DNA of 64,000 nt from an uncultured Candidatus Cloacimonadota bacterium (GTDB lineage: Bacteria > Cloacimonadota > Cloacimonadia > Cloacimonadales > TCS61), in the NCBI GenBank assembly GCA_964433675.1, contig CAYSSJ010000002.1:7471-71470 (forward strand). The letters run 5' to 3'. The position numbers were made by a program, and so were the translations under genes. The notes below the pieces were generated by a model that was not told the origin of the DNA, did no database searches, and was given only the letters and a program-made list of their open reading frames with translations. Of the stretch, positions 13,890 to 46,152 are shown in pieces. How positions within the stretch are numbered: position 1 is the first letter of the stretch; each line of letters starts with the position of its first letter.

Positions 13890-14021
13890 CCGATAACGTT
13901 CGGCGTGTATGTGCAGTAGCGGATTAGACCTGTACTGAGCTTACCGAAGTAAGCACTTTTATGTTCGTTTAGCACAATGTTTTTCAGAAGCACAACGATT
14001 CACCTATCCCTCTGTTAGCAT
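13890..14021 (-). repeat. Degenerate attC-like cassette junction
   Basis: Minus strand: GCTAAC just after the S41 stop ... GTTATCGG before the esterase gene; arms pair poorly. Confidence 0.4.
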
Positions 14022-14029
14022 CTGAATAT

Positions 14030-15385: not shown

Positions 15386-15453
15386 ATAATTCTGTCTTTT
15401 GATTTTACTATCATCTTTGACTCCGATAATCTTTATTTTTAACTATCTAAAAA

Positions 15454-15526
15454 TTATCCCCAAATCAGTCAAGTTAATAAAACCTCATCGGCAAATTATT
15501 TTTAGAATGATTTTACCACCGAGAGC
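15454..15526 (-). repeat. Promoter-containing direct repeat, copy 1 of 3
   Basis: ccaaatcagtcaa..atcggcaaattatt..gaatgattttaccaccgagagc also at ~17437 and ~20889; minus strand reads TTGACT. Confidence 0.85.
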
Positions 15527-15845
15527 ATACTACTACGCCAAGGCTTCGTAGCACATGCAGAGAGAGTGAGAAGTTGAGAAAATGTGAATATGAGAGAGTT
15601 AGGATGCAAAAAGTGGTTAGGAGTATGGGAAGATAGGTTTGATTTTATCCACGAATTACACGAATTTTCACGAATATTCTTTTTTTTATTAACCACCGAG
15701 TTTCACCGAAGAGCACCGAGTTTTATTTATGTTTTAATCCTCTGTGCTCTCTGCGTTCTCTGTGGTTTTTCTATTTTAACAAAACTCCTGTATTCTGTTT
15801 TCTCAACTTCTCATCTTCCACCGATAAGATCTTGATATTCTTCAT

Positions 15846-17312
15846 CTAAACCCTCACATTATTTAAATCATGTTCAAAGGTTATATGCCAATGCAGTCCT
15901 GCTTTACAATAATACTCGATCTTCCCATTCAATTGATATTCGGTGAGGGCGAAAGCATTTTGCAAACCCATAGATTTTGATTGGCGCAGATCGACATCCG
16001 CAGGTAATCCCACCCCATTATCTTCCAATTTTAGAACGACTTTTTCATCCGATTGTTCAAACAATTTTATCTTGATTTGACCTTTGCCGCCGTTGGGAAA
16101 GGCATGTTTATAGATATTGGAGATCAATTCTGTGATGACCAAACTGAGTGGAATCGCCGTATCAATGGTTACATGTATTTTTTGCAGTTCATATTTCAAT
16201 TCCAGTTCGGAATTTGCATTTCGATAGCTACGCTGCAAATGACGAGTAACTTCCACAATATAATCTCCCAGATTTATCTGTGAAAGGTTTTGCGCTTCGT
16301 AGAGCATTTGATGGACGATCGCCATCGATTTTATCTTAGCGATGACTTCCCGATAAGTCTCGAATAATTTTTTATCATCTAACTGCTGTGCCTGTATCCT
16401 CAGCATGGAAGCGATCACCTGCATGTTGTTTTTGGTGCGATGATAAAGCTCTTTGAGCAACAGATTTTTTTCTTTAAGATTTTGATGGATTTTTTCTTCT
16501 GCTACTTTTATTCTGATAATATCAGCTTCCAATTCTTTGGTTTTTTCTTTTACTTTTGTTTCCAGCACTTCATTCATATTTTCTATTGTATTTCTTTCCT
16601 GATGGAGTTGATAACGAAAATAAAATTCCTTTCTTGTATAGAATTCCAAACAATAACCGCCGAACATCCCAAGCAAATTTGCACTTATCAAAAAGAAAAT
16701 GTTAATTTGAAAAACACTTGGATCTCCTGCATAACCAGCGATGTATGTTGCCAGATAAGATAACATAATTATAAGTCCTGCTAATGAACTCCAAATAAAA
16801 CGAAGTTTAATGAGAAGATAGCAGTAGATAAGCACAATGATAATTCCCACATAATAGGTTTGTTTACCAATTTCCGGTGCGATGATGATCATAAGTATTA
16901 TTCCAATTCCGGCAACACAGGAGGTCAAAAAAGCTGCAAACTGCCACCATTTTTGGAAATTTTTTGTGAATGACAGACTGAATAGGATCAGAATAATAGG
17001 AGAAACAATAAAGAACCTGATGATGTAAAGTTGCTCTTTTATCTGCGGTAAGGCATAAGCATCTAAAATAGCAAATAAAAAGTAATAAGTAATTCCCAAT
17101 AAAAAAGAAATCCTTAGAAATCCGAGAGATGAGTGATAATAATCTTTTTGAAATTCACCTTCCAGTTCGTCAGGAAAGCTCAATGTTATTGGGTTCAGTT
17201 TTACATCAAAAATCCCTTCCTGCAATTTATTGAAGACTAAATAAAATAAATTAAATTCCTTAATTTTATGATTCATCCTTTGAAGAATTCCCAAAATTTT
17301 TTTCATTATCAC
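15846..17312 (-). CDS. Membrane sensor histidine kinase, HisKA_2 family (start uncertain)
   Basis: About six TM helices, coiled coil, H-box ELYHRTKNN, ELISNIYKHAF, EDNGVG, GLQ. Confidence 0.85.
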   Translation of the reverse strand: MIMKKILGILQRMNHKIKEFNLFYLVFNKLQEGIFDVKLNPITLSFPDELEGEFQKDYYHSSLGFLRISFLLGITYYFLFAILDAYALPQIKEQLYIIRFFIVSPIILILFSLSFTKNFQKWWQFAAFLTSCVAGIGIILMIIIAPEIGKQTYYVGIIIVLIYCYLLIKLRFIWSSLAGLIIMLSYLATYIAGYAGDPSVFQINIFFLISANLLGMFGGYCLEFYTRKEFYFRYQLHQERNTIENMNEVLETKVKEKTKELEADIIRIKVAEEKIHQNLKEKNLLLKELYHRTKNNMQVIASMLRIQAQQLDDKKLFETYREVIAKIKSMAIVHQMLYEAQNLSQINLGDYIVEVTRHLQRSYRNANSELELKYELQKIHVTIDTAIPLSLVITELISNIYKHAFPNGGKGQIKIKLFEQSDEKVVLKLEDNGVGLPADVDLRQSKSMGLQNAFALTEYQLNGKIEYYCKAGLHWHITFEHDLNNVRV

Positions 17313-17436
17313 TACTTCTCAGTTAGCTGCGCTGAAGAGCTACCTTCGAAAAAGAGCAAATGCGCAAGATTTTGCATAATTACTATTACATCTACTATAA
17401 AATATTACTGCCATAATTTATCTATTTATAAATACT

Positions 17437-17524
17437 CCCAAATCAGTCAAGTGAATAAAACCTCATCGGCAAATTATTTTTAGAATGATTTTACCACCGA
17501 GAGCTCCGAATACACCGAGTTTTT
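17437..17524 (-). repeat. Promoter-containing direct repeat, copy 2 of 3
   Basis: Near-identical to 15458-15526 and 20893-20986. Confidence 0.85.
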
Positions 17525-17585
17525 TGTTTAATGACCTCTTTTGTGTCGGATATGGCATAATTTCTCTTGTTCATTTTGGCATGAA

Positions 17586-17715
17586 GTCTAACATCCTGAA
17601 ATATATGCAGTTGCCGATTGCGGAGTGCTTTCCTGTCGAACCCCACTGCAGTTGTTGCAGGCGGCGAACTTCCAATTCAGCACGGAAACGGCAATTGATA
17701 TATTTTTTGTTGGCA
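17586..17715 (-). repeat. attC-like site
   Basis: Minus strand: GCCAAC-aaaaaatatat-caattgccg ... cggcaactg-c-atatatttcaggat-GTTAGAC; imperfect hairpin with extrahelical bases; GTTAGAC fits GTTRRRY. Confidence 0.6.
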
Positions 17716-17734
17716 ACAGTATTTCCTTTCATCA

Positions 17735-18292
17735 TCAAAATTTTACTGTTAATTTTTCCGCTAGTTCTTCTGGTATAGAAGAATTCGCTTTTATTAACGT
17801 CTCTTTGTCAATGAGTGAGATAGTTGGTATAATATTTCTTACCTTTTTGATAATATCATTGTCGATAGCAAATAATTCTTCAACTAATTTGCTTGCAGCG
17901 GTATATTTAGGATCGCTGGATGTCCAGATACCGTGGCGATTATCTCTTGTATATTCAATGGAAAATAAGTTTGCAAGTCCTTCTTCTAGACAATTTGCCG
18001 ATTTTATTCCAGTTGGACTTAAACAATGAATTAACTCGTGGGAGACTTGAAAAACAGCTCGATTTAAGTCATTGATACAGCTTAACGATATTTGGATAAC
18101 GATATTCTTACAATCTCCAGGATACCAAATTCTAGGATGTCCATCTTGGTTAAACTCGACCCCTAATATTGAATATGATTTGTCCCGTTCTCCAAATCTT
18201 TTTTCTGCTTCTTGCAGTATATGTCCTATTTTAGACGTAATTGTCCAAGTGTAGCCATTCTGAAAAGGATGAGAAGTAAAAATTGAACTCAT
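17735..18292 (-). CDS. Putative Zn-metallopeptidase (HExxH...E)
   Basis: FQVSHELIHCL followed by LEEGLA; no signal peptide. Confidence 0.65.
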   Translation of the reverse strand: MSSIFTSHPFQNGYTWTITSKIGHILQEAEKRFGERDKSYSILGVEFNQDGHPRIWYPGDCKNIVIQISLSCINDLNRAVFQVSHELIHCLSPTGIKSANCLEEGLANLFSIEYTRDNRHGIWTSSDPKYTAASKLVEELFAIDNDIIKKVRNIIPTISLIDKETLIKANSSIPEELAEKLTVKF

Positions 18293-18301
18293 AGATTTAT
18301 G

Positions 18302-18883
18302 CTAATTAATTAGTAATGTTATGATTGCACCTAAGATTGCACCAATTATACCGCTAATGAAATGATCGCGTAATTTAGACTTCCAACTATTTGAGTTTTT
18401 AATTTCATCCCGCAATTCGTTAATTGTCTTTGACTGTTTTTCAATTGTGTTTGCTAAAACATCTAGAGATTTACTACTCGAAGATATTGTTGTGAGCTTT
18501 AGCTTAATCCCTTCTGCAGTCATTGGTCGAATTTGCTCTCCAATTCGTTGGAAAACTGAACCTGCTGAAAAGACCATTTCATTAGATTTTTCAACATTGA
18601 TTATGAAAACATTTTTATTATCAATAGCTATAACTTCAGTGTTAATATTCGGAATTGGTTTTAATGCAGTTCTTGCCCTTTCAATTATGGATTGAATTCT
18701 TTCGGTGTCTACTCCAACAATTTCTATTGGTTCTCTTACCCCAACTACAATCTGACCGCCTTTGTTGTTTGCGAATGAACCAATAATTTTAGATAATAAA
18801 ATTGGGTCACGGAGGTCAGCTTTAAGTTCAAAAGTTTCGCTTTCTCCTTGGTTTATTTTTTCAATTAATTGTTCTGCTGTCAT
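18302..18883 (-). CDS. Schlafen/AlbA_2-domain protein with coiled coil and C-terminal TM helix
   Basis: GESETFELKA, SFANNKGGQIVVGV, FQRIGEQ; C-terminal FISGIIGAILGAIITLLI. Confidence 0.82.
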   Translation of the reverse strand: MTAEQLIEKINQGESETFELKADLRDPILLSKIIGSFANNKGGQIVVGVREPIEIVGVDTERIQSIIERARTALKPIPNINTEVIAIDNKNVFIINVEKSNEMVFSAGSVFQRIGEQIRPMTAEGIKLKLTTISSSSKSLDVLANTIEKQSKTINELRDEIKNSNSWKSKLRDHFISGIIGAILGAIITLLIN

Positions 18884-18901
18884 TGTAGATGTCGTTTTGT
18901 T

Positions 18902-18942
18902 AATATTGCTGCCAAACGTTTTATATACATCATGTTACCGGC
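18902..18942 (-). repeat. Internally deleted attC-like junction
   Basis: Minus strand: GCCGGTAAC, then 16 nt, then GTTTGGCAGCAATATT, between the REase stop and the AlbA start. Confidence 0.5.
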
Positions 18943-18949
18943 TGGGCTT

Positions 18950-19702
18950 CTATTTTTCAGTCTTTGGATCAATTATCGCTGAGTTAAAACGAACTAATTT
19001 TTCCCAATCAATTTCTCCGTTGTCTTTGCAAAAATTGTTCGAAAATTCTCTTGTAAATATGTTTATCATTTGAGAATACGATTCTACAAATTCTTCATTC
19101 TTTTCTTTTGCTTTATGACCCAATGGTTCAATGATTTTAGTGTAAAGTTCTGTGTTACCTGAAATGAACTTCCAAAATCTTTGCCCACAATATTTGAAGT
19201 AATCTCCTTTGTCGGGTTTGTTATCTCTGCCGTAGCAACAGCCATTAACTGCAACAACATTAAGTTGCGAACAGCTTGTTCTTAACGTCCTTTTGGCTGT
19301 TTTGAAATCGGCAACCATTTTAGCAATTTGTGAACTGTTGCCCCAGTTCGGACCTGATTTAATTGTTACAATGTTTCTCGCACCATTGTTGTCAAATTCC
19401 AAGTCAATACCTATAATACCTGATTTATAACCACCATAAACTTTACCGTTTATGAAAATTGCAAGTCCTTCAAGCCAATCGCCAAAAATTGTTTCTTCGT
19501 TTGACGAAATGTGTGCATCAGCAATGCCACGAATAATTTGTTCAGCTGTTAATACATACTTTGCTTTGAATAAATATGGGTTCTTGCGTTTTAGAACTTG
19601 TGAGAGCTTCAATGCTTTAAGGCTTTGAATACGTTTTTGGTGAAATATTCCTATATTATGCTCAACGTATTGCGATACGTCTTTAAGGTTTAGCTTTTTC
19701 AT
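18950..19702 (-). CDS. Type II restriction endonuclease, PmeII-like family
   Basis: RKNPYLF, SSNEETIFG, GIDLE..IKSGPNWGNSSQ (PD-(D/E)xK-like), YCGQRFW; overlaps the MTase gene. Confidence 0.78.
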   Translation of the reverse strand: MKKLNLKDVSQYVEHNIGIFHQKRIQSLKALKLSQVLKRKNPYLFKAKYVLTAEQIIRGIADAHISSNEETIFGDWLEGLAIFINGKVYGGYKSGIIGIDLEFDNNGARNIVTIKSGPNWGNSSQIAKMVADFKTAKRTLRTSCSQLNVVAVNGCCYGRDNKPDKGDYFKYCGQRFWKFISGNTELYTKIIEPLGHKAKEKNEEFVESYSQMINIFTREFSNNFCKDNGEIDWEKLVRFNSAIIDPKTEK

Positions 19703-20540
19703 ACTTTGCTTTCGGTTCAAATAAATACAGTTCAACAGGTTTTAATTGTTGCCTTACCATTTCGTAGTATTCTGGAACAATGTCAATACCGATTGAATTT
19801 CTTTCCATTCTGTTTGCAACTACTAATGTTGTTCCTGAACCCATAAATGGGTCAAGAACTGTGTCGTTTACTTTAGTGAATAATTTGATAAACCATTCAG
19901 GAAGTTCTTCGGGAAATGTAGCACTATGATTTTTATTATTACATTCTGTTGCCAAGTGTAAAACATTGGTTGGATATGCTTTGTCCCTGTTTAACCAATT
20001 TGAAATGTTTTTACCAAACCCACTTCCAACTTTTGAATTATAACGGATTTTATCTGTGTCAGAAAGGTTTTTAAGTCTTGATTTTGTCCAATTACCCATT
20101 GGAACCCTAACTTCGTCCTGATACATATTGAATTTACGGTCTTTGTTGAATTGCAAAAGTCGTTCCCAAGCGTCACGGAAACGATTTGGCCACTTTCCTG
20201 GATAACAGTTTTTCTTATGCCAAATAAATTCTTCAGTCCAAAGCCAACCTTGTTTTCTCATTTCAAGAATGAGTTCAATTACGTAGGTGCTACGCTCTCC
20301 TTTAACTACTCTTTCTTTAATGTTAAGAATAAAAGTTCCAGTTGGTTTAAGAACGCGTAAGAGTTGCTCTGAGATAGGTAAAAACCATTGAACGTATTTG
20401 TCGGGATGAATACCACCGTAAGTGTTTTTTCGTTGGTCGGCATAGGGTGGGGAAGTTACAATTAAGTCCACTGATTTGTCGGGCAGTAACTTTAATTGCT
20501 CTTTGCTGTCACCCAAGTATAAGTCCGTTTTTATCTCCAT
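19683..20540 (-). CDS. Beta-class N4-C/N6-A DNA methyltransferase
   Basis: Motif IV TSPPY near the N-terminus, HSATFP, motif I DPFMGSGTT near the C-terminus. Confidence 0.92.
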   Translation of the reverse strand: MEIKTDLYLGDSKEQLKLLPDKSVDLIVTSPPYADQRKNTYGGIHPDKYVQWFLPISEQLLRVLKPTGTFILNIKERVVKGERSTYVIELILEMRKQGWLWTEEFIWHKKNCYPGKWPNRFRDAWERLLQFNKDRKFNMYQDEVRVPMGNWTKSRLKNLSDTDKIRYNSKVGSGFGKNISNWLNRDKAYPTNVLHLATECNNKNHSATFPEELPEWFIKLFTKVNDTVLDPFMGSGTTLVVANRMERNSIGIDIVPEYYEMVRQQLKPVELYLFEPKAKYEKAKP

Positions 20541-38241: not shown

Positions 38242-38277
38242 AAAAAAAAACCTGCCGAATTTTTTAGATCCGGCAGG
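38242..38277 (-). terminator. Intrinsic terminator ending the tdh-satP operon
   Basis: CCTGCCG..CGGCAGG stem plus T9 on the minus strand, running into TTGACA. Confidence 0.8.
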
Positions 38278-38303: not shown

Positions 38304-38870
38304 TCAGCTTTTTCTCTCACCAATCGGAAGGACAGTCTTACCATGAGCTTCGTTGACTATCTCAGCCATTGCCAGATAAACTGCAGATAAGCCACAGATG
38401 ATTCCTTCCCAACCCGCGATTTTACCGATCAACTCACTACCGGTCCAATCTCTGATCGCCAATAGCCAGAAGAGAATGGTAAGAGAAAGAAAGACAAATT
38501 GCAGATTTCTGTTCTTATGGAAAGTTCCGATCCACATGAAGAAGGTAAACAATCCCCACATAAATAGATACCAACCCATAAAAGCAAGTGAGGTTTCTTG
38601 ACCCCATCCTATTTCGGGAAAAACCCATAAGAATACCAGCGATATCCAGAACAAACCATAAGATGTGAAAGCTGTCATGCCGAAAGTATTGCCCTTCTTA
38701 AATTCAGAGAGACCGGCAAATATCTGAGCCAGTCCACCATAAAATATCCCCATGCTCAAAAGCATGGCGCTAACCGGGAAAAAACCTGCATTATGGATAT
38801 TCAACAGAACCGTTGTCATCCCGAAACCCATTAACCCCAGCGGAGCAGGATTTGCTAGTTTATTTTCCAT
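38304..38870 (-). CDS. satP: Acetate uptake transporter, SatP/YaaH family
   Basis: LANPAPLGLMGFG signature, GGLAQ, GNTFG..AFTSYG. Confidence 0.92.
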   Translation of the reverse strand: MENKLANPAPLGLMGFGMTTVLLNIHNAGFFPVSAMLLSMGIFYGGLAQIFAGLSEFKKGNTFGMTAFTSYGLFWISLVFLWVFPEIGWGQETSLAFMGWYLFMWGLFTFFMWIGTFHKNRNLQFVFLSLTILFWLLAIRDWTGSELIGKIAGWEGIICGLSAVYLAMAEIVNEAHGKTVLPIGERKS

Positions 38871-38886
38871 TTTCACTCCTACTATT

Positions 38887-40134
38887 TTATAATCCGTACA
38901 TTTCTATGATCTCTTGTTTTGTCTTACCAAGAATTTCATATTTTTTACCCACTTTTATAAAAGCATCCAAAGCTTTATCCAAGTGGTGAATTTCATGTCC
39001 GGCAGATATTTGTGTTCTAATTCGTGCTTTACCATTTGGAACTACCGGGAAGAAGAACCCAATAGCATAAATACCTTCATCATAAAGGTCTTTAGAAACA
39101 TCTTGAGATAATTTGGCATTGAATAGCATTACCGGTACGATCGGAGTATCGCCGGGTTGCAATACAAAACCGGCATCGGTAAGCCCTTTACGCCAATATT
39201 CCGTATTGGTCTCCAATTTATCCCTACGCTCAGTACTCTCAGAGAGAATATCCAATACTTTTAATACGCCACTAACTACTACCGGTGCGATAGTGTTCGA
39301 GAACAAATATGGGCGCGCTTTTTGACGACACATCTCCACCAACTCTCGGCGACCGGAAACACAACCACCGGAAGCTCCACCCAGAGCTTTTCCGAAAGTA
39401 GTGGTAATGATATCTACTTTGCCCAGCACACCACAATGTTCGTGTGTGCCTCTACCCTTTTTTCCTATAAAGCCGGTAGCATGGGAATCATCCAAAAAAA
39501 GCATGGCGTCGTATTTTTCACAAAGTTCAACCATCTCATCCAATTTGGCAATATCCCCGTCCATACTGAAAACGCCATCGGTGATGACTACTTTTAATCT
39601 TCTATCCGAATGCAATTGCAGTTTTTTCTCCAAATGTTTCATGTTGGAATGTTTGAATGTATCGTGAATAGCACTACAGAGCCGAATCCCATCGATGATA
39701 GATGCATGAACCAGCCGATCGGAGATCATTACATCATCTTCGGTAAGAATAGCTTCGAAAACTCCCGCATTGGCATCCATGCAACTGGGAAAGAGGATGG
39801 TGTCTTCCGTTCCCAAAAATTCTGTAACTTTACTCTCCAATTCTTTGTGAATATCCTGTGTGCCACATATAAAACGAACCGAGGACATTCCGTAACCTCT
39901 GGTATCCAGTCCTTCATGTGCAGCTTTAACCACTTCCGGATGGCTGGATAAACCGAGATAATTGTTGGCACACATATTGATAACTTTTTTCAGCGAAGAG
40001 CCCTCGGGAAACTCGACCTCGATGTCGGCAGCTTGAGCGGAGTGGATAAACCGCTCAACTTTGAAAATACCGGCGTCTTTTACGTTCTGCAACTCTTCTT
40101 GATAGATCTTGCGCACCTTATCGCTAAAACTCAT
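38887..40134 (-). CDS. kbl: Glycine C-acetyltransferase-like PLP enzyme, second copy
   Basis: [39 protein letters not shown]; short N-terminal insertion and C-terminal extension. Confidence 0.85.
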   Translation of the reverse strand: MSFSDKVRKIYQEELQNVKDAGIFKVERFIHSAQAADIEVEFPEGSSLKKVINMCANNYLGLSSHPEVVKAAHEGLDTRGYGMSSVRFICGTQDIHKELESKVTEFLGTEDTILFPSCMDANAGVFEAILTEDDVMISDRLVHASIIDGIRLCSAIHDTFKHSNMKHLEKKLQLHSDRRLKVVITDGVFSMDGDIAKLDEMVELCEKYDAMLFLDDSHATGFIGKKGRGTHEHCGVLGKVDIITTTFGKALGGASGGCVSGRRELVEMCRQKARPYLFSNTIAPVVVSGVLKVLDILSESTERRDKLETNTEYWRKGLTDAGFVLQPGDTPIVPVMLFNAKLSQDVSKDLYDEGIYAIGFFFPVVPNGKARIRTQISAGHEIHHLDKALDAFIKVGKKYEILGKTKQEIIEMYGL

Positions 40135-40230
40135 AATAAACTCCTTTCCTTGATCTTACAAAACGATCATTTTGCAAGAAGCGATTGAGCTCGATCATTG
40201 CAAGTTGATCAAGCATTATCCCATCCTTTT

Positions 40231-40476
40231 TTACTTTACAAACTCTTTTACCAAATCAGTAATTTTGTTAACGCTATCGAAAGCTTCGGGAGTTGCTTTT
40301 TCGTCCGGTATAGAGATTTTGTACTTTGCTTCCAAAAATCTCTTCAGCGATACCATAGAAAAAGAGTCCACGATTCCACCGGAAATAAGCGGCGTATCAT
40401 ATGATATCTCATCATCTTCATCTTCCAGATACTCATCGATCACGTATTCCAATACAATTTCTTTCATGTCTTCCAT
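40231..40476 (-). CDS. Acyl carrier protein
   Basis: 81 aa, highly acidic, GIVDSF phosphopantetheine serine motif, FDSVNKI. Confidence 0.88.
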   Translation of the reverse strand: MEDMKEIVLEYVIDEYLEDEDDEISYDTPLISGGIVDSFSMVSLKRFLEAKYKISIPDEKATPEAFDSVNKITDLVKEFVK

Positions 40477-40493
40477 TTTTTTTCTCCTTATAT

Positions 40494-42197
40494 TTAATCA
40501 TCTTCCAAAGTGGATGTATCACCGATCTCCTCACCCCATTCTTTGGCGTGCAGAAGTCGGCGCATTATCTTACCGCTACGTGTTTTGGGTAGTTTCTCCA
40601 CATATTCGATCTCCTGAGGCATAGCCAACGGTGATAGCTTTTTACGGATGAAATTCATAATGCTAAGCTCGAGCATATCATCAATCTCATAACCGGGTTT
40701 CAGCATTACAAATGCCTTTACTACTTCCATATTGACTTCATCCGGTTTGGAAACTACTGCGCTCTCTGCCACTGCCTCATGTTCCAAGAGAGCCGATTCT
40801 ACTTCAAACGGACTGACCAGATGCCCACCGGTATTGATAATATCATCATCCCGACCTACGAACCAGAAATATCCATCCTGATCGATATAAGCTCTGTCAC
40901 CCGGTAGATACCAACCGTTCTTGAATTTTGCCTGATAGGTTTCTTCATTGTTCCAATAAGTTCTCATCATTGCGGGCCAACCGGGACGGAAAGCGATCAG
41001 GCCGATCTTCCCATGTTCACTGTAGGGTTCGAATGTCTTGGGATCAACAATTGCAGCGGTGATGCCGGGAAATGGTTTGCCCATCGAACCGGGTTTGATT
41101 TTCATGCCCGGAAAATTAGTCAGCATCATCGAGCCGGTCTCGGTCTGCCAATAGGTATCCAAGAAAGGATGTCCATATACCTTCTCACTCCAGACTACTG
41201 CTTCGGCATTCAGTGGTTCACCTACACTGGCAAGATGGCGCAAAGAGGAAAGATCGAATTTCTTGATGATCTCATCTCCGGCTTTCATGAGAGAACGAAT
41301 AGCCGTAGGTGCAGAGTACCAGACTGTAACCTTATACTTTTCGATGAATTTGTACCAACTCTCGGCACTGAATCCGACATCCAAAACACATTGGGTTGTG
41401 CCCAGACTCCATGGTCCGATAATACCATAAGAAGTTCCGGTTACCCAGCCCGGATCGGCAGTACACCAATAAATATCATCATCTTGTAAGTCCAATACCC
41501 ATTTTGTAGTTAGATACTGAGATATGAGAGAATAATGAACATGTTTCACCCCTTTGGGCTGACCGGTAGTTCCGGAAGTGTAATGCAGTACAGAAGGAGA
41601 TTCAGCTTTAGTAGGATGGATCCGGAAGTTTTTAGGCTCGGGATAAGATTCCAAATCGAAGGCAACTTCTCGCTCTCTGAGCGGTTTTCTCTCATCAGAA
41701 TCTACAACTATGATATGCTTTAGATAAGGGCTTTTGTCTAACAACCTACGTACTTTGGCAATATGTTTACGCTGAGTGATGATAGCCTTAGTCTCGGCAT
41801 TCTCCAAGCGTACATGCAAGGATTCATCTCCAAAAGCGGAAAATAAAGGCTGGACTATAGCACCGATCTTGAGACCACCCAAAAAACTGATGTATAGTTC
41901 GGGGATCTTGTCCATAAACAAACAGACACGGTCTTCCGCTTGAATACCCAAACTACGCAAGAAATCTCCTACTTTGTTACTGTTGATGCGTATTTGGTCG
42001 AAAGTATATCGTTTCGTCTTTCCTCCCATACCTTCCCAATGCAAAGCAACTTTATCTGCTTTTCCCATATCGCAGATACGGTCGGAACAATACCACCCGA
42101 TATTGATCACATCTCCATCTTTGTAGTCGAGTTCTTTCTCAGCAATCGACCAACCAAAATTCTTAACTCTCTCTTCGTATGAGCCAATGTTCGACAT
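40494..42197 (-). CDS. acsA: Acetate-CoA ligase-like adenylating enzyme (AcsA-type)
   Basis: YTSGTTGQPKG, TADPGWVTG, DTYWQTETG (acetate-pocket Trp), PKTRSGKIMRR. Confidence 0.88.
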   Translation of the reverse strand: MSNIGSYEERVKNFGWSIAEKELDYKDGDVINIGWYCSDRICDMGKADKVALHWEGMGGKTKRYTFDQIRINSNKVGDFLRSLGIQAEDRVCLFMDKIPELYISFLGGLKIGAIVQPLFSAFGDESLHVRLENAETKAIITQRKHIAKVRRLLDKSPYLKHIIVVDSDERKPLREREVAFDLESYPEPKNFRIHPTKAESPSVLHYTSGTTGQPKGVKHVHYSLISQYLTTKWVLDLQDDDIYWCTADPGWVTGTSYGIIGPWSLGTTQCVLDVGFSAESWYKFIEKYKVTVWYSAPTAIRSLMKAGDEIIKKFDLSSLRHLASVGEPLNAEAVVWSEKVYGHPFLDTYWQTETGSMMLTNFPGMKIKPGSMGKPFPGITAAIVDPKTFEPYSEHGKIGLIAFRPGWPAMMRTYWNNEETYQAKFKNGWYLPGDRAYIDQDGYFWFVGRDDDIINTGGHLVSPFEVESALLEHEAVAESAVVSKPDEVNMEVVKAFVMLKPGYEIDDMLELSIMNFIRKKLSPLAMPQEIEYVEKLPKTRSGKIMRRLLHAKEWGEEIGDTSTLEDD

Positions 42198-42218
42198 AAC
42201 TTCTCTCCTTTTAACTGC

Positions 42219-42614
42219 TCAGATTTTATCTTTCTGCCGGGCAGATTTCTCTATTATCACCACTGCACCAGCATAATGTTTAAGATGAGTCAAAGATACC
42301 TGAATATTGTCAAGTCCTTTTTTTGAGGCAAACTCTTTTGCTTTTCCCCAGAGCTTGATCTCCGGTCTGCCCAATTCATCGTTGATGATCTCGACCTCAT
42401 CGAAGGATAGTCCACCCCGCCAACCTGTACCGATTGCCTTGAAAAAAGCCTCTTTGGCGGCGAAACGAGCTGCGAAGCTTTCCGCATAATTTTTTCTAGC
42501 TTGGCAGTATTCTATTTCTCCTGCGGTAAATATCTTTTCTTTGAAACCATTCTTTTCCAATTGCTTCTCTACCCTTTCTACTTCTATATTATCTATTCCG
42601 ATACCGAATATCAT
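42219..42614 (-). CDS. acpS: Holo-ACP synthase (phosphopantetheinyl transferase)
   Basis: GIGIDN, FAARFAAKEAFFKA, GRP, VSLTH. Confidence 0.93.
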   Translation of the reverse strand: MIFGIGIDNIEVERVEKQLEKNGFKEKIFTAGEIEYCQARKNYAESFAARFAAKEAFFKAIGTGWRGGLSFDEVEIINDELGRPEIKLWGKAKEFASKKGLDNIQVSLTHLKHYAGAVVIIEKSARQKDKI

Positions 42615-43561
42615 CTTTTCAGTTTTTTCCCTAAAACCTTCAGCATATCTTCAGTCATTTCGGGCAGATTGTATTCATGTTTCCAACCCCATTCTTCTCG
42701 GGCTACCGAATCATCCATTTTGTTGGGCCAGCTATCTGCTATTGCCTGCCGTACCGTATCGATCTCGTAGGATATTTTGAACTCCGGAATATGCTTACGA
42801 ATCTCGGCTGCAATTTCTTCCGGTTCGAAACTCATAGCTGCTACATTATAACAATTCCTATGTTGCAGTTTGGCAGGATCTGCTTCCATCAACTCAATAG
42901 CAGCTCTGAGACAATCCGGCATATACATCATATCCAGATAAGTCCCTGCCTTTAAGTTGCAGAGAAACGACTTCTCTTGAATTGCCTTGTAGTAGATATC
43001 TACAGCATAGTCGGTAGTTCCGCCACCGGGAAGAGTAACATTGGATATGATGCCCGGATAGCGTACCCCTCGTGTATCAACACCAAACCTCATATGATAA
43101 TAATCGCAGAGCAACTCACCGGAAACTTTGGTGACTCCATACATGGTTTTGGGACGCATTATCGTATTTTGTGGAGTATTATCGGGCGGTGTGGTAGGTC
43201 CGAATGCTCCGATAGAACTCGGTGTAAATAGTGCGAATTTGAATTCGATTGCCAATTCGAGTAGATTCATCAAGCCACCCACATTGACTTTCCACGAGAG
43301 CTGAGGTTTTTGCTCCCCCACTGCCGATAGAAATGCTACCAAATTATAGACAGTATCAATTCTATATTTTTTTAAAATCTCTTTTATCTTGTTTGCATCC
43401 AGACAATCGATGATCTCATAAGGACCGGATCTCAAGATTTCTGGGGGATCAGTTCGAATATCGGAAGCAACCACATTATCGTCACCATATAGGCGGCGCA
43501 ATTCAGGAACAAGTTCAGAACCTATCTGTCCGGCAGCACCCATAACCAAAATCCTCTTCAT
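42611..43561 (-). CDS. tdh: L-threonine 3-dehydrogenase, SDR type
   Basis: GAAGQIG, LSAVGE, PSSIGAFG, YGVTK, GGGTTDYAV, MMYMPD, RQAIADSWP. Confidence 0.88.
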   Translation of the reverse strand: MKRILVMGAAGQIGSELVPELRRLYGDDNVVASDIRTDPPEILRSGPYEIIDCLDANKIKEILKKYRIDTVYNLVAFLSAVGEQKPQLSWKVNVGGLMNLLELAIEFKFALFTPSSIGAFGPTTPPDNTPQNTIMRPKTMYGVTKVSGELLCDYYHMRFGVDTRGVRYPGIISNVTLPGGGTTDYAVDIYYKAIQEKSFLCNLKAGTYLDMMYMPDCLRAAIELMEADPAKLQHRNCYNVAAMSFEPEEIAAEIRKHIPEFKISYEIDTVRQAIADSWPNKMDDSVAREEWGWKHEYNLPEMTEDMLKVLGKKLKR

Positions 43562-43866: not shown

Positions 43867-46152
43867 TTATTTCAAAAGCATCATCTTCCTCGTAACCACC
43901 TCATAATCTGTTGCTAACTTATACAGATAAATCCCCGATGGCAATTGTCTGCCCTTATCATCTTTACCGTTCCATATAATCCTGTGCTCTCCCGATAACA
44001 TCTCTTCATTCACCAGTGTTTTCACTTTCTGACCGCGAATGTTGAAAATTTCGATAGTGACATACCCACAATGAGATAGTGAAAACTCTATCGTTGTAGA
44101 AGGATTGAACGGATTGGGATAATTGTAGATATCCACATCCGGTTGGAAGATGACAAGGTCGTCTTCTGCTGACACATGAGGTGTATCCTGCAAGTAAGGA
44201 TAGCCGTTATTGACCGTATAATCCTCATCAACAGCCCAGATTTCATCAAAATCCCAATTCACATAAGTATTGTCAGCATAGGGATAAGTCATCTCTTCGG
44301 TGGTTCTGCCTTCACCACTAGCACTTGTAGTTTGCCCGGATGTTTCGATATCCCAATAACTATTATTAGCATTGCCATCTCCAGCCCCAATTAATCCGCC
44401 GACATGGGTGTCTCCACTTACGCTTCTTGTGCTGTAGCTATTACTGATATTGGAACTCTCTTGCCGACCCACAAGGCCTCCTACATACCATGGTCCATTC
44501 ACACTTCCCATACTGAAACTGTTTATGATGGTGGAATTATCAAATTGCCTGCCCACCAACCCGCCGACATATTCTTCTCCATTAACTCCCCCAATGCTGA
44601 AGCAGTTGGCGATGGTAGATCCCCATTGATCCCCAACTATGCCACTAACAGACCATGACCCACTCGTACTTCCCGAGCTATAGCTGTTGCTTATGATGGA
44701 AGACCGTTGTATTCCCGCGATACCACCAACATACCTATCTCCGGTTATGTCAACATTTGATACTCCAAGGTTTTCAATTATTGATTCAAATGTATAACCA
44801 AATAAACCGATGAAACTAAGAAAATCAATATTGAGCGTTAATTTATCAATTATAAAGCCATCTCCATCAAAACTTCCTGAAAAGTAAGGGATATAGAAAT
44901 TAGGATAGTCTTCTAAATCTAAATCAGTTGTTAATTTATAAGAGTATTCCTCAAATTGTCCAAACGCAAGAAGCTTTTTAAAGTCATTAACTGAGTTGAT
45001 CAGATAACTGTTTCCATCGTAAGAGAGATAATCGTCAATATTCAAATATAGATCATTATCAAGCCAGGTGTTAAAGATTTCGCTTCCCAGAGCACCAATT
45101 GTTATAACATTTTGATCGTTGATTAAAACCTCTTCATAATTATAATAACTATTGATGATTGTGGTTGTCCAATGTTGCCCCACCAGACCACCGACACGCT
45201 CATTTCCACTCACACAACCCATGCTATAGCTGTTGCTGATAGAGGAAGTATCATTATGCCCTACCAATCCGCCAACAAGAACTTCTCCACATACATTACC
45301 CGTGCTATAGCTGTTGCTGATGGTGGAAATATATTGCTTTCCTATTAGACCGCCAACGACATTATCTCCATTCACACTACCTGTGCTGTAGCTGTCGGTG
45401 ATTGTAGCTCCCCATTGAGACCCCACCAGGCCTCCGGCACTTCTTACTCCGTACACACTAGCCGTGCTGTAACTGTCGATAATGGTAGAATCTACCGACT
45501 GATATCCCAGCAACCCACCAACATACTCACTATGCCCATTTACATTCCCATTGCTGTAGCTGTTGCTGATTGTAGAATTATTGCCTTGTTCCCCCACCAA
45601 ACCGCCGACAGTATAATTTCCATTCACACTACCCGTGCTTAAGCTGTTGCTAACTGTGGAATTATTGTCTTGTCTCCCTACAATACCGCCGACGTAACCA
45701 TATCCGCTTATATCAATATTAGTTATGCGAAGGTTTTCGATAGTTGATCCGTAAGTATAACCAAATAAACCAATATACCTAGTATTTGGCCGATTGATGA
45801 AAATAGCGTCAATAGTATGATCTTGACCATTGAAAACCCCGGTAAAAGGCAAGTTATTAGGGTTACTCCATTCGTAAAAACCTATAGGATTCCATCCTTC
45901 TCCATCAAACCAATTTTCCGTATCAGTTGCATCGATATCAGCTATCTGGATATAATGGCTTGACCAGCGAGATTCCTGGTTTGGATATGGTATGATATCA
46001 TTACTAGCAGCGAACCAATACAGATTCTCCAAAGAAGCTATCTGATAAGGATCATCTTCTGTTCCTAAACCCTCAGCAGGTGGTATGGCGTTCTGGGCAA
46101 AAAGTGTGGTTATTCCCAACACTATTATCGTAATTAAGTATAACTTATTCAT
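43867..46152 (-). CDS. Secreted GLUG-repeat protein with C-terminal FlgD-Ig / T9SS-like sorting domain
   Basis: Signal peptide, GTEDDPYQI, ~28-aa VGGLVG..ISNSYSTGSV repeats, NYPNPFNP..SGIYLY..KMMLLK tail. Confidence 0.85.
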   Translation of the reverse strand: MNKLYLITIIVLGITTLFAQNAIPPAEGLGTEDDPYQIASLENLYWFAASNDIIPYPNQESRWSSHYIQIADIDATDTENWFDGEGWNPIGFYEWSNPNNLPFTGVFNGQDHTIDAIFINRPNTRYIGLFGYTYGSTIENLRITNIDISGYGYVGGIVGRQDNNSTVSNSLSTGSVNGNYTVGGLVGEQGNNSTISNSYSNGNVNGHSEYVGGLLGYQSVDSTIIDSYSTASVYGVRSAGGLVGSQWGATITDSYSTGSVNGDNVVGGLIGKQYISTISNSYSTGNVCGEVLVGGLVGHNDTSSISNSYSMGCVSGNERVGGLVGQHWTTTIINSYYNYEEVLINDQNVITIGALGSEIFNTWLDNDLYLNIDDYLSYDGNSYLINSVNDFKKLLAFGQFEEYSYKLTTDLDLEDYPNFYIPYFSGSFDGDGFIIDKLTLNIDFLSFIGLFGYTFESIIENLGVSNVDITGDRYVGGIAGIQRSSIISNSYSSGSTSGSWSVSGIVGDQWGSTIANCFSIGGVNGEEYVGGLVGRQFDNSTIINSFSMGSVNGPWYVGGLVGRQESSNISNSYSTRSVSGDTHVGGLIGAGDGNANNSYWDIETSGQTTSASGEGRTTEEMTYPYADNTYVNWDFDEIWAVDEDYTVNNGYPYLQDTPHVSAEDDLVIFQPDVDIYNYPNPFNPSTTIEFSLSHCGYVTIEIFNIRGQKVKTLVNEEMLSGEHRIIWNGKDDKGRQLPSGIYLYKLATDYEVVTRKMMLLK

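What the first reader, a model, noticed from the sequence alone, without database searches (positions are those of the whole stretch)
38304..43561. Candidate carrier-protein-linked threonine/glycine/acetate pathway: tdh-acpS-acsA-ACP-kbl-satP operon
Seen: six co-oriented, closely spaced genes (tdh/acpS overlap by ATGA), closed by a terminator at 38242-38277. They encode an SDR threonine dehydrogenase, a PPTase, an acetate-type adenylating enzyme (TYWQTE pocket), a stand-alone ACP (GIVDSF), a Kbl-family PLP enzyme and a SatP acetate channel. Established: Tdh plus Kbl convert threonine to glycine and acetyl-CoA using CoA, with no need for ACP or PPTase. Inference: here the acetyl group may ride on a dedicated ACP. 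Either acetate -> acetyl-ACP + Gly -> 2-amino-3-ketobutyrate -> Thr (aspartate-independent threonine synthesis), or the reverse, Thr -> Gly + acetyl-ACP -> acetate + ATP via AMP/PPi with acetate export. I know of no description of this system, but could not search for one.
Basis: partly seen in the sequence, partly recalled or inferred. Interest (0 to 1): 0.85.

Follow-up and report, generated by a model that had tools for sequence, protein, structure and literature searches.

The report
Carrier-protein-linked acetate, glycine, threonine operon
An uncultured anaerobe keeps the ordinary threonine-to-glycine-plus-acetate enzymes together with a small private carrier protein, in a gene set held almost unchanged across many bacterial phyla, which suggests an undescribed way of handling acetyl groups on a protein instead of on coenzyme A.

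Summary
The six co-oriented genes, the ATGA overlap and the terminator are all present as described. They encode an SDR-type threonine dehydrogenase, AcpS, an AcsA-type acetate ligase, an 81-aa carrier protein, a Kbl paralog (Kbl1) and SatP.

The conserved unit is Acs-ACP-Kbl1:
- It occurs in 11 of 41 relatives' genomes.
- It has the same gene order in loci from many phyla, at 69-90% protein identity while synonymous sites are saturated.
- Both non-homologous Tdh types occur beside it.

AcpS is not dedicated. It is the genome's only PPTase, and tdh-acpS adjacency predates the module in this order. The predicted anticorrelation with thrC or ackA was not found.

Best reading (0.55) is a carrier-protein version of the Tdh/Kbl/Acs link, with acetyl carried on the ACP. 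The direction is unresolved and no biochemistry exists.

A real rival is that both enzymes simply use CoA. The module ligase never co-occurs with canonical Acs and tracks a Pat-like acetyltransferase.

My five paper searches found no description. This scan has reported the same module before in at least 15 other genomes.

The parts
42611..43561 (-). tdh: L-threonine 3-dehydrogenase, SDR/GalE-like type (316 aa)
   Evidence: phmmer against PDB: 18 solved or designed TDH-family chains at E 4e-128 to 2e-71, including 2yy7 at 1e-107; the next hit, a UDP-glucose epimerase, is at 5e-12. Pfam Epimerase. Single copy in 38 of 41 relatives.
42219..42614 (-). acpS: holo-ACP synthase (131 aa); the genome's only PPTase, so housekeeping rather than dedicated
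   Evidence: TIGR00516 109 bits against cut-off 59.8. Only PF01648 match in G000. ATGA overlap with tdh. It lies between tdh and a Kbl-like gene also in relatives without the module.
40494..42197 (-). acs: AcsA-type (short) acetate adenylating ligase (567 aa); proposed to load or unload the carrier protein
   Evidence: NF003313 766.5 bits against cut-off 729. Best PDB hit 9g79, a 572-aa acetyl-CoA synthetase, E 1e-173. Only Acs-like gene in the genome. Leu460 replaces the A8-motif Arg in 75 of 75 module ligases.
40231..40476 (-). acp: stand-alone 81-aa carrier protein, net charge -12, invariant D37-S38
   Evidence: No Pfam hit. Sub-threshold NCBIfam hits to carrier proteins: NF052616 63.6 bits against cut-off 130, AmcB, DltC. 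AlphaFold2 model pLDDT 88. Foldseek TM 0.80-0.82 to PigG, PltL, DltC and CcbZ carriers. D37 and S38 invariant in 79 sequences. The housekeeping AcpP is elsewhere, on contig C3.
38887..40134 (-). kbl1: specialised paralog of glycine C-acetyltransferase (415 aa) with a clade-specific C-terminal helix
   Evidence: TIGR01822 577 bits against cut-off 493. E 2e-136 to 5e-132 to five solved Kbl sequences, which align only to residues 11-402. One clade with SH-aLRT 99. 22 clade-specific residues. Mean column identity 87% over 79 sequences.
38304..38876 (-). satP: acetate channel/transporter of the GPR1/FUN34/YaaH family (190 aa)
   Evidence: NF038013 280.9 bits against cut-off 50; PF01184. Present at 60% identity or more in 13 of 64 full-flank loci.
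38242..38277 (-). intrinsic-terminator-like hairpin plus T-run closing the six-gene unit
   Evidence: 10-bp stem, 6 GC pairs, 7-nt loop, run of nine T.
   Evidence: TIGR01822 650.5 bits against cut-off 493. 55-56% identical to Kbl1. A second Kbl-type gene accompanies the module in 36 of 64 full-flank loci.

Best explanation
The locus is a carrier-protein version of the link between threonine, glycine and acetate.

Shown:
- A real operon tdh-acpS-acs-acp-kbl1-satP.
- The triad Acs-ACP-Kbl1 is an ancient unit under very strong selection.

Inferred:
- The housekeeping AcpS makes the 81-aa carrier holo.
- The AcsA-type ligase forms acetyl-AMP and passes the acetyl group to the carrier's phosphopantetheine thiol, or does the reverse.
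- Kbl1 interconverts acetyl-S-carrier + glycine with 2-amino-3-ketobutyrate + holo-carrier.
- Tdh links that ketoacid to threonine with NAD(H).
- SatP moves acetate across the membrane.

The result would be a small acetyl pool kept apart from acetyl-CoA. The canonical Kbl2 next door would serve the CoA pool.

Direction is not resolved. My split within this reading:
- Threonine breakdown to glycine + acetate, with ATP made from AMP + PPi: about 0.45.
- Acetate activation feeding 2-amino-3-ketobutyrate and threonine: about 0.3.
- The rest for a freely reversible system.
For: Gene identities.

Operon structure.

Carrier protein:
- The ACP has a carrier fold nearest to stand-alone carriers that adenylating enzymes load: PigG and PltL at TM 0.80-0.82, DltC at about 0.75.
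- Its Asp-Ser is invariant.
- It is distinct from AcpP.

Conservation:
- The module is in 11 of 41 relatives.
- The best 80 loci carry titles naming Bacteroidota, Zixibacteria, Delongbacteria, Aminicenantes, KSB1, Chloroflexota, Bipolaricaulota and others.
- Over 91 loci, Kbl1 follows the ACP in 86 of 87, Acs precedes it in 77 of 83, and acpS is upstream on the same strand in 50 of 74.

Selection: Kbl1 is 78-90% identical across phyla while fourfold-degenerate sites are 24-46% identical. Mean pairwise distances are Kbl1 0.19, Acs 0.23 and ACP 0.25, against co-located canonical Kbl 0.35 and AcpS 0.48.

Kbl1 is specialised:
- It forms one clade nested in Kbl.
- It has 22 diagnostic residues, including R140 and V142 flanking the PLP-stacking His143; that position is Asn in 43 of 43 other Kbl-family copies.
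- It has a conserved extra C-terminal helix.
- It coexists with a canonical Kbl in 36 of 64 loci, so the two copies are unlikely to do the same job.

Threonine link:
- Both non-homologous Tdh types occur beside the module.
- All 5 large genomes checked have an SDR-Tdh.
- In relatives the module occupies the slot of the Kbl-like partner of tdh.

Precedent: AasR-AcpR-SPT (PMC9386255, abstract and sections 14-15 read) and SulA (PMC9304779, abstract and passages read).
Against: No biochemical, expression or structural evidence shows that the ACP is acetylated or that either enzyme uses it.

- Acs passes the equivalog cut-off for acetate--CoA ligase. It keeps the acetate-pocket Trp, the catalytic Lys and the residue aligned to the S. 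enterica CoA-contacting Arg584 (residue roles recalled).
- Kbl1 passes the Kbl equivalog cut-off and keeps all catalytic motifs.
- The module ligase never co-occurs with the long canonical Acs: 0 of 11 module genomes against 9-10 of 30 others.
- A Pat-like Acd+GNAT protein is found only where one or the other Acs is present. This is what one expects if the module ligase is simply the cell's acetyl-CoA synthetase.
- Kbl1 shows no overall gain of positive charge that would mark an ACP landing surface.
- One closed genome has Acs-ACP without any Kbl1- or Kbl2-type gene.
- AcpS is housekeeping, so its adjacency is weaker evidence than it looks.
Confidence: 0.55

Rival explanations
1. Ordinary CoA chemistry. 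The ligase is the cell's acetyl-CoA synthetase and Kbl1 is a CoA-dependent Kbl isoenzyme. The small carrier protein has some other role, such as regulator, sensor of acetylation state, or substrate of a third enzyme.
For: - Both enzymes exceed NCBIfam equivalog cut-offs: 766 against 729 and 577 against 493.
- The acetate pocket, the catalytic Lys and the Arg584-equivalent are kept (roles recalled).
- The ligase is the only Acs in the genome and is mutually exclusive with the long Acs in relatives.
- A Pat-like protein co-occurs with either Acs type: 6 of 11 module genomes, 8 of the 9-10 long-Acs genomes, and none with a full-length form among the rest.
- That protein lies directly downstream of the module in 13 of 91 loci.
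Against: - This reading leaves the most conserved feature unexplained: a carrier protein with an invariant Ser fixed between the two genes in 86 of 87 loci.
- It does not explain why a specialised, slower-evolving Kbl clade is kept beside a canonical Kbl in 36 of 64 loci.
- The A8-motif Arg conserved in all five solved Acs sequences shown is Leu in 75 of 75 module ligases. This is not diagnostic, though.
Confidence: 0.2
2. Convergent feeding of a private acetyl-carrier pool. Acs (from acetate) and Tdh/Kbl1 (from threonine) both run in their usual physiological directions and both produce acetyl-S-carrier. An enzyme not encoded in the locus then consumes it.
For: - It lets both enzymes work in their normal directions.
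- It fits Pat-type control of the ligase and SatP, which NCBIfam names an uptake transporter.
- The Acs-ACP pair persists at 71% and 82% identity in a closed genome that lacks any Kbl1- or Kbl2-type gene.
Against: - No candidate consumer is conserved near the module in 91 loci.
- The recurrent neighbours are acpS, a second Kbl, SatP, Tdh, a Pat-like protein, a thioredoxin-like protein, MntP and a porin-like protein.
- Only 1 of 87 loci lacks Kbl1, so that genome may be decaying.
Confidence: 0.15
3. A biosynthetic cassette for a sphingoid-like lipid base or a small aminoketone or pyrazine natural product, in the manner of ligase-ACP-alpha-oxoamine synthase-reductase systems.
For: The architecture of ligase + ACP + alpha-oxoamine synthase + SDR is that of the Caulobacter sphingolipid genes (PMC9386255, abstract).
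Against: - The ligase has the acetate-size pocket and is 50% or more identical to a short acetyl-CoA synthetase, not FadD-like.
- Kbl1 scores far below the serine palmitoyltransferase cut-offs (325 against 640) and above the Kbl cut-off.
- The SDR is a threonine dehydrogenase by homology to 18 solved TDH chains.
- Conservation of 78-90% across phyla with saturated silent sites is that of central metabolism.
Confidence: 0.05

Closest known systems
Tdh-Kbl threonine cleavage pair plus AMP-forming acetyl-CoA synthetase (solved Kbls 1fc4, 7bxp, 7v58, 3tqx; solved short Acs 9g79)
   Same: The enzyme families and catalytic motifs are the same. Tdh, Kbl and Acs each score as members. Chemistry by established knowledge: threonine to 2-amino-3-ketobutyrate to glycine + acetyl thioester; acetate + ATP to acetyl thioester.
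   Different: - A dedicated carrier protein is inserted between acs and kbl.
- Kbl1 is a separate clade with 22 diagnostic residues and an extra C-terminal helix.
- The ligase lacks the A8 Arg.
- A canonical Kbl is often kept alongside.
- No ACP is known to take part in the textbook pathway (my knowledge; paper searches found none).
AasR-AcpR-serine palmitoyltransferase of Caulobacter and other Rhodobacteria (PMC9386255; abstract and sections 14-15 read)
   Same: The logic is the same: a specialised ACP, an adenylating enzyme that acylates that ACP, and an alpha-oxoamine synthase that prefers the acyl-ACP, encoded together. A housekeeping AcpP exists separately.
   Different: - There the acyl group is a long-chain fatty acid, the ligase is FadD-like, the amino acid is serine, the condensation is decarboxylative and the product is a lipid base.
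- Here the ligase is Acs-like with an acetate pocket, and the synthase is a Kbl (glycine, non-decarboxylative).
- The components are not orthologous, and the biochemistry here is untested.
SulA, cysteate acyl-ACP transferase of Alistipes finegoldii (PMC9304779; abstract and passages read)
   Same: An alpha-oxoamine synthase shown to use acyl-ACP and to use acyl-CoA poorly, with an electropositive ACP-binding patch at the dimer interface.
   Different: - SulA uses the housekeeping ACP with long acyl chains and makes a sulfonolipid precursor.
- I found no overall charge shift in Kbl1 and could not map a surface patch.
Stand-alone carrier proteins loaded by free adenylating enzymes (PltF-PltL, PigI-PigG, DltA-DltC)
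   Same: These are the nearest solved folds to the ACP model: TM 0.80-0.82 for PigG and PltL, about 0.75 for DltC. A 38-39% identical paralog of the ACP in two relatives lies beside DltB/MBOAT-like genes.
   Different: Those carriers hold aminoacyl groups (prolyl, D-alanyl) for natural products or teichoic acids. Here the neighbouring ligase has an acetate pocket.

Membership tests
L-threonine 3-dehydrogenase, SDR/GalE-like type | Full-length homology to solved TDHs of this type, clearly above sugar epimerases | tested here: met
   18 TDH-family PDB sequences at E 4e-128 to 2e-71; the first epimerase is at 5e-12.
L-threonine 3-dehydrogenase, SDR/GalE-like type | N-terminal Gly-rich NAD site and catalytic Tyr-x-x-x-Lys (motifs recalled) | tested here: met
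   GAAGQIG at residues 8-14 and YGVTK in the translation; both align with identical residues in 7cgv.
Glycine C-acetyltransferase (Kbl, EC 2.3.1.29) | Score above the curated equivalog cut-off | tested here: met
   Kbl1 scores 577.4 on TIGR01822 against cut-off 493, and 576 on NF005394 against 460. Kbl2 scores 650.5.
Glycine C-acetyltransferase (Kbl, EC 2.3.1.29) | PLP lysine and the conserved HAS, DDSH and RPYLFSN blocks | tested here: met
   Identical blocks in alignments to 7bxp and 7v58. K249, H143, D215, H218 and R371 are invariant in 79 sequences.
Glycine C-acetyltransferase (Kbl, EC 2.3.1.29) | Uses acetyl-CoA/CoA as the thioester partner | not testable with these tools
   Needs an enzyme assay. 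Indirect signs of a different partner: the adjacent ACP, 22 clade-specific residues, and Asn-to-Val next to the PLP-stacking His.
Acetate--CoA ligase, short AcsA type (NF003313) | Score above the curated equivalog cut-off | tested here: met
   766.5 against 729. E 1e-173 to 9g79.
Acetate--CoA ligase, short AcsA type (NF003313) | Acetate-size pocket (Val-Thr, Val, Trp) and catalytic Lys of motif A10 (residue roles recalled from work on S. enterica and Methanothermobacter Acs) | tested here: met
   GWVTG, SVGEP, YWQTE and SGK543 align with the S. enterica enzyme 2p2f.
Acetate--CoA ligase, short AcsA type (NF003313) | Arg of the A8 motif (G-x-R; S. enterica Arg526, recalled) | tested here: not met
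   Leu460 in 75 of 75 module ligases; Arg in all 5 solved Acs sequences shown. Leu also occurs in at least 20 of 87 other Acs-like representatives, so its meaning is unclear.
Acetate--CoA ligase, short AcsA type (NF003313) | CoA is the acyl acceptor | not testable with these tools
   Needs an assay with CoA against the holo-carrier.
Phosphopantetheine carrier protein | Match to the Pfam PP-binding model or to a curated ACP model above cut-off | tested here: not met
   No Pfam family at E 0.001 or below. The best NCBIfam hits are all below cut-off: 63.6 against 130, 39.8 against 80, 26.7 against 68.
Phosphopantetheine carrier protein | Helical-bundle carrier fold with the Asp-Ser attachment site at the start of helix 2 | tested here: met
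   AlphaFold2 pLDDT 88, with helix 2 starting at residue 38. Foldseek probability 1.00 and TM 0.8 to PigG, PltL and others. D37 and S38 invariant.
Specialised ACP + acyl-ACP synthetase + alpha-oxoamine synthase system (AasR-AcpR-SPT kind) | A second ACP distinct from AcpP, encoded with an adenylating enzyme and an alpha-oxoamine synthase | tested here: met
   AcpP is on another contig. The gene order is conserved.
Specialised ACP + acyl-ACP synthetase + alpha-oxoamine synthase system (AasR-AcpR-SPT kind) | The ligase acylates the special ACP and not CoA, and the synthase prefers the acyl-ACP | not testable with these tools
   These are the defining experiments of PMC9386255 and have not been done for this module.
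Dedicated (pathway-specific) PPTase | A PPTase additional to the housekeeping one | tested here: not met
   One PF01648 match in G000. In 5 other module genomes there is only one AcpS-size match each, and in 3 of them it is not next to the module.
SatP/AceTr acetate transporter | Score above the curated cut-off | tested here: met
   NF038013 280.9 against 50. NF007941 scores 278.9 against 297, just below.

The most novel reading that the evidence does not exclude
A CoA-independent acetyl shuttle in central metabolism. Three proteins (ligase, carrier, Kbl1), together with Tdh, reversibly couple threonine + NAD+ + AMP + PPi to glycine + acetate + NADH + ATP. The acetyl group never enters the acetyl-CoA pool. 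Protein-degrading anaerobes of many phyla could then gain ATP from threonine through an AMP-forming ligase run backwards, without a futile cycle against Pta-AckA or Acs.
Probability: 0.25. Interest if true: 0.85.

Novelty: new variant of a known kind. Interest (0 to 1): 0.7.

Why it matters
Annotation pipelines label these genes as plain acetyl-CoA synthetase, acyl carrier protein and glycine C-acetyltransferase. Metabolic reconstructions of many uncultured anaerobes (Cloacimonadota, Bacteroidales, Aminicenantes, Zixibacteria and others) therefore read them as ordinary CoA chemistry.

If the acetyl group rides on a private carrier, three things follow:
- It would be the first carrier-protein-dependent Kbl and the first Acs-type acetyl-ACP synthetase.
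- A two-carbon unit of central metabolism would be insulated from the CoA pool.
- The energy and carbon budgets assumed for amino-acid fermentation in digesters and sediments might change.

Kbl1 is 78-90% identical across phyla with saturated silent sites. That says the function is important wherever the module is kept. The claim can be tested directly with three purified proteins.

Tried and rejected
1. Complex prediction with a Kbl1 dimer plus the ACP, using my own alignments, gave no support (score 0.02 against mark 0.32) and the controls were not run. This is no evidence either way. The cap left no job for ligase + ACP.

2. The look-up of sequencing runs, kind rna: no RNA holder was listed.

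3. A8-motif Arg-to-Leu in the ligase as a marker of ACP use: invariant in the module, but Leu also occurs in at least 20 of 87 other Acs-like representatives whose context I cannot see. Not diagnostic.

4. Electropositive landing pad: median net core charge is -5 for Kbl1 (82 sequences) and -4 for the other Kbl-family copies (43), so no difference. Kbl1 does have more His, 14 against 8.

5. Mirror-tree correlation: r = 0.54-0.79 for every pair, housekeeping AcpS included. There is no specific co-evolution signal. It does argue for mostly vertical descent.

6. Anticorrelation with thrC or ackA: not found.

7. Co-occurrence with SDR-Tdh in a sample of 151 genomes of another order: 14 of 16 ACP-bearing genomes against 99 of 135 others. 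Tdh is too common there to discriminate.

8. Lipid or sphingoid reading: rejected on the ligase pocket and the family scores.

9. OlsHI ornithine-lipid ACP, the best NCBIfam name for the carrier: the score is far below cut-off. The passages I found in PMC12493201 say OlsH needs no ACP. This is only a distant family resemblance.

10. Paper searches found no description of an ACP-dependent Kbl or an acetyl-ACP-forming Acs. The library lacks most subscription journals, and supplements were closed.

11. Mapping CoA-nucleotide contacts (S. enterica Arg191 and Arg194, recalled) failed, because the short AcsA type aligns poorly in that stretch.

Full report
**Observation.**
- The stop of tdh and the start of acpS overlap as ATGA.
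- The next gaps are 21, 17, 96 and 10 nt, and AGGAG-type ribosome sites precede acs, acp and kbl1.
- A hairpin with a 10-bp stem (6 GC pairs) followed by nine T lies at 38277-38251, right after satP.
- The motifs TYWQTE and GIVDSF are in the translations.

**What the genes are.**
- The 316-aa SDR is an L-threonine 3-dehydrogenase. Eighteen solved or designed TDH sequences match at E 4e-128 to 2e-71, and the first sugar epimerase is at 5e-12.
- The 131-aa protein is AcpS (TIGR00516 109 bits against cut-off 59.8).
- The 567-aa ligase passes the equivalog cut-off for the short form of acetate--CoA ligase (NF003313, 766.5 against 729). Its best solved relative is a 572-aa acetyl-CoA synthetase, 9g79 (E 1e-173).
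- Aligned to the S. enterica enzyme, the ligase keeps the acetate-pocket residues, the Arg584-equivalent and the catalytic Lys. The roles of these residues are recalled, not taken from a call.
- The 81-aa protein has no Pfam hit and only sub-threshold NCBIfam hits to carrier proteins.
- Its AlphaFold2 model (pLDDT 88) is a carrier-protein bundle. The nearest solved folds are stand-alone carriers that free adenylating enzymes load: PigG and PltL at TM 0.80-0.82, DltC at about 0.75.
- Asp37-Ser38 is invariant in 79 sequences, and the protein's net charge is -12.
- Both Kbl-family proteins exceed the Kbl cut-off of 493 bits: Kbl1 577, Kbl2 650.
- Kbl1 matches five solved Kbl sequences at E 2e-136 to 5e-132 with all catalytic blocks intact.
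- SatP scores 280.9 against cut-off 50 on the acetate transporter model.

**Place in its own genome.**
The genome is 2.45 Mb and 99.6% complete.
- The acpS of the operon is the only PF01648 match, so it is the housekeeping PPTase and not a dedicated one.
- The housekeeping AcpP is on another contig.
- The ligase is the only Acs-like gene; the next best match is 27% identical.
- There are three alpha-oxoamine synthases: Kbl1, Kbl2 and a 35-37% identical one elsewhere.

**Relatives.**
I searched 41 genomes of the same order, the window's own included.
- The carrier at 75-88% identity, the module ligase at 77-89% and Kbl1 occur together in 11 of 41.
- Tdh is single-copy in 38 of 41, and in all 35 genomes of good quality.
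- In 19 genomes without the module, tdh lies within 2.7 kb of a different, diverged Kbl-like gene that is 36-40% identical to Kbl2. Its best NCBIfam score is 342 against 460.
- In 3 of the 5 such loci I fetched, the order is tdh-acpS-AOS-rsmI-ybaB-recR. A fourth has the same order but its contig ends after rsmI, and the fifth ends after the AOS.
- The window has the same frame, with acs-acp-kbl1-satP-kbl2 in place of that gene.
- So the module took the slot of the Kbl-like partner of tdh, and tdh-acpS adjacency is older than the module here.

**Other phyla.**
Of these, 403 encode a relative, and I examined only the 80 best.
- Their record titles name Bacteroidota, Zixibacteria, Delongbacteria, Ignavibacteriales, Aminicenantes/Acidobacteria, KSB1, Chloroflexota, Bipolaricaulota, Cloacimonadota and others. 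All are metagenome-assembled genomes.
- I counted over these 80, the 10 relatives and the window, 91 loci in all, using only loci with enough flanking sequence for each count.
  - Kbl1 directly downstream of the carrier: 86 of 87.
  - The ligase upstream within 2.6 kb: 77 of 83.
  - acpS upstream on the same strand: 50 of 74.
  - A second Kbl-type gene: 36 of 64.
  - SatP: 13 of 64.
  - SDR-Tdh: 12 of 64.
- The six ligase misses:
  - Two have 2.6-kb and 6-kb insertions between acs and acp.
  - Two have the ligase in several frames, probably assembly errors.
  - Two have no ligase in the stretch held.
- Four loci carry a Zn-ADH-family ORF. The one I scanned passes both Tdh equivalog cut-offs, 540 against 380 and 479 against 458. 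Two non-homologous threonine dehydrogenases therefore occur beside the module.
- In five large genomes reached through named loci, each has one AcpS-size PPTase. It is adjacent to the module in two of them and not in three. All five have an SDR-Tdh.

**Selection.**
- Kbl1 is 78-90% identical between the window and seven genomes, five of them from other phyla. At fourfold-degenerate sites the identity is only 24-46%.
- The likeness is therefore long-term purifying selection, not recent transfer.
- Mean pairwise protein distances over the loci are Kbl1 0.19, ligase 0.23 and carrier 0.25. The co-located canonical Kbl is at 0.35 and AcpS at 0.48.
- I built a quick IQ-TREE tree of 76 rows: 31 of the 82 Kbl1 copies, all 43 other copies and two outgroups. 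The careful search did not finish.
- In that tree Kbl1 is one clade (SH-aLRT 99) nested within ordinary Kbls. Its sister is seven tandem copies from Delongbacteria-type loci.

**What is special in the proteins.**
- Twenty-two positions carry a residue shared by at least 90% of 82 Kbl1 copies and at most 10% of the 43 other copies.
- Among them are Arg140 and Val142 flanking the PLP-stacking His143. That second position is Asn in all 43 others.
- The others include Met119, Pro116, His167, Cys269 and Ala273.
- There is also a conserved C-terminal extension (K404, K406 and Y413). It is predicted as a confident short helix at residues 406-413. The solved Kbls do not cover it, since their alignments end at residue 399-402.
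- In the ligase the Arg of the A8 motif is Leu460 in 75 of 75 full-length module sequences; 6 shorter ones were dropped. All five solved Acs sequences shown have Arg there.
- At least 20 of 87 other Acs-like representatives also have Leu, so I cannot use it as a marker.

- thrC is above cut-off in 9 of 11 module genomes and in 19 of 30 others, and the window's genome has it.
- ackA is above cut-off in 9 of 11 and in 23 of 30.
- There is no anticorrelation, which weakens the idea of a replacement threonine synthesis and shows that ordinary acetate formation is present.

Two observations cut the other way and are given in full.
- The module ligase never co-occurs with the long canonical Acs: 0 of 11 module genomes, against 9 genomes with a 660-680-aa form plus one with a 549-aa form among the other 30.
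- A roughly 900-aa Pat-like protein (Acd domains plus GNAT) is found in 6 of 11 module genomes and in 8 of the long-Acs genomes. Otherwise only two shortened forms occur. It also lies directly downstream of the module in 13 of 91 loci.
- Both facts fit a ligase that behaves in the cell like an acetyl-CoA synthetase.

**Mechanism.**
Shown:
- The operon.
- The conserved triad.
- Its tie to threonine dehydrogenase.
- The carrier fold with its invariant Ser.
- The specialisation of Kbl1.

Inferred:
- AcpS makes the carrier holo.
- The ligase moves acetyl between acetate and the carrier thiol through acetyl-AMP.
- Kbl1 moves it between the carrier and glycine or 2-amino-3-ketobutyrate.
- Tdh connects that ketoacid to threonine.
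- SatP moves acetate across the membrane.
- Kbl2 serves the CoA pool.

I give this 0.55. Its strongest support is that it explains two things at once: why a carrier gene is fixed between the two enzymes, and why a distinct, slowly evolving Kbl is kept next to a normal one.

Direction is open.
- Breakdown (threonine to glycine + acetate with ATP from AMP + PPi) fits the usual direction of Tdh/Kbl and the amino-acid-fermenting habit I assume for such anaerobes (my assumption, not from a call).
- Pat-type control and an 'uptake' transporter fit acetate activation.

Rivals:
- Plain CoA chemistry with an unexplained carrier (0.2).
- A private acetyl-carrier pool fed from both sides and drained by an unknown enzyme (0.15). 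It is favoured by one closed genome that keeps ligase and carrier but has no Kbl1- or Kbl2-type gene.
- A lipid or natural-product cassette (0.05).

**Comparison with what is known.**
- The nearest system in logic is AasR-AcpR-serine palmitoyltransferase. There a special ACP is acylated by its own ligase, which does not use CoA, and the synthase prefers that acyl-ACP (PMC9386255; abstract and sections 14-15 read).
- SulA shows an alpha-oxoamine synthase that uses acyl-ACP and uses acyl-CoA poorly (PMC9304779; abstract and passages read).
- The present module differs from both. It has an acetate-pocket Acs-type ligase, a Kbl (glycine, no decarboxylation), a two-carbon unit and central-metabolism enzymes.
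- Five full-text searches found no paper on an ACP-dependent Kbl or an acetyl-ACP-forming Acs. Most subscription journals are not in the library, and supplements were closed.
- This scan has already reported the same module in at least 15 other genomes with the same general reading. Those notes are not independent evidence.
- What I add here:
  - The locus replacement in this order.
  - The housekeeping status of AcpS.
  - The absence of the predicted anticorrelations.
  - The exclusivity with the canonical Acs, and the Pat link.
  - The silent-site saturation.
  - The genome that lacks Kbl.

**Dead ends.**
- The complex prediction gave no support.
- No RNA run was listed.
- The charge, mirror-tree and A8 analyses did not discriminate.

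**Verdict.**
- The kind of system (special carrier + ligase + alpha-oxoamine synthase) is known, but this acetate/Kbl form is not described in what I could search.
- I rate it a new variant of a known kind with interest 0.7. It needs three-protein biochemistry to be settled.

Noticed in passing
L108:2014-3240 (-); same arrangement in L109-L112: In 19 relatives without the module, tdh lies within 2.7 kb of a diverged Kbl-like alpha-oxoamine synthase (408 aa). In the five loci fetched, acpS lies between them. The synthase is 36-40% identical to Kbl2 and scores below every NCBIfam cut-off (342 against 460 for Kbl). Its substrate is unknown, and it looks like the ancestral partner of Tdh in this order.
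   Followed up: partly
L036:5006-7237 and flanks: A closed genome carries ligase (71% identity) and carrier (82% identity) but no Kbl1 next to them. The whole genome has no Kbl1- or Kbl2-type gene; its best alpha-oxoamine synthase is 36% identical with an internal TGA. A thioredoxin-like fragment, a GNAT and a multihaem cytochrome follow the carrier gene.
   Followed up: partly
L026:8015-11923 (+); L027:7976-8203 (-): A 38-39% identical paralog of the carrier protein occurs in two relatives. In L026 it is followed by two DltB/MBOAT-like genes (TIGR04091 191 and 172 bits, below cut-off). This looks like a Dlt-like acylation system in a Gram-negative-type lineage.
   Followed up: partly
own genome C5:116628-117965 and onward; L105:5108-7784: A roughly 900-aa Pat-like protein (NDP-forming acyl-CoA synthetase domains plus a C-terminal GNAT) occurs in relatives only where an Acs of either type is present. 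It lies just downstream of the module in 13 of 91 loci.
   Followed up: partly
L106:2937-4256 (-), and 16 further loci: A 439-aa protein with a signal peptide and a C-terminal aromatic end (YYFF) has no Pfam or NCBIfam hit. It lies about 3 kb downstream of the carrier gene on the opposite strand in 17 loci. It looks like an outer-membrane porin, possibly for small anions.
   Followed up: no
L028, L030, L034, L035, L037, L048, L080 (gene directly after Kbl1): These seven loci, five of which titles Delongbacteria, carry a tandem second copy about 61% identical to Kbl1. The copies form the sister clade of Kbl1 (SH-aLRT 99) and none of these loci has acpS upstream.
   Followed up: no
window 43867-46152 (-): The gene upstream of the operon encodes a 761-aa protein with GLUG repeats and a type IX secretion C-terminal sorting domain.
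   Followed up: no
window 14001-20000: GC content drops to 0.34 against about 0.42 in the rest of the window, which may mark a foreign island. I did not examine it.
   Followed up: no
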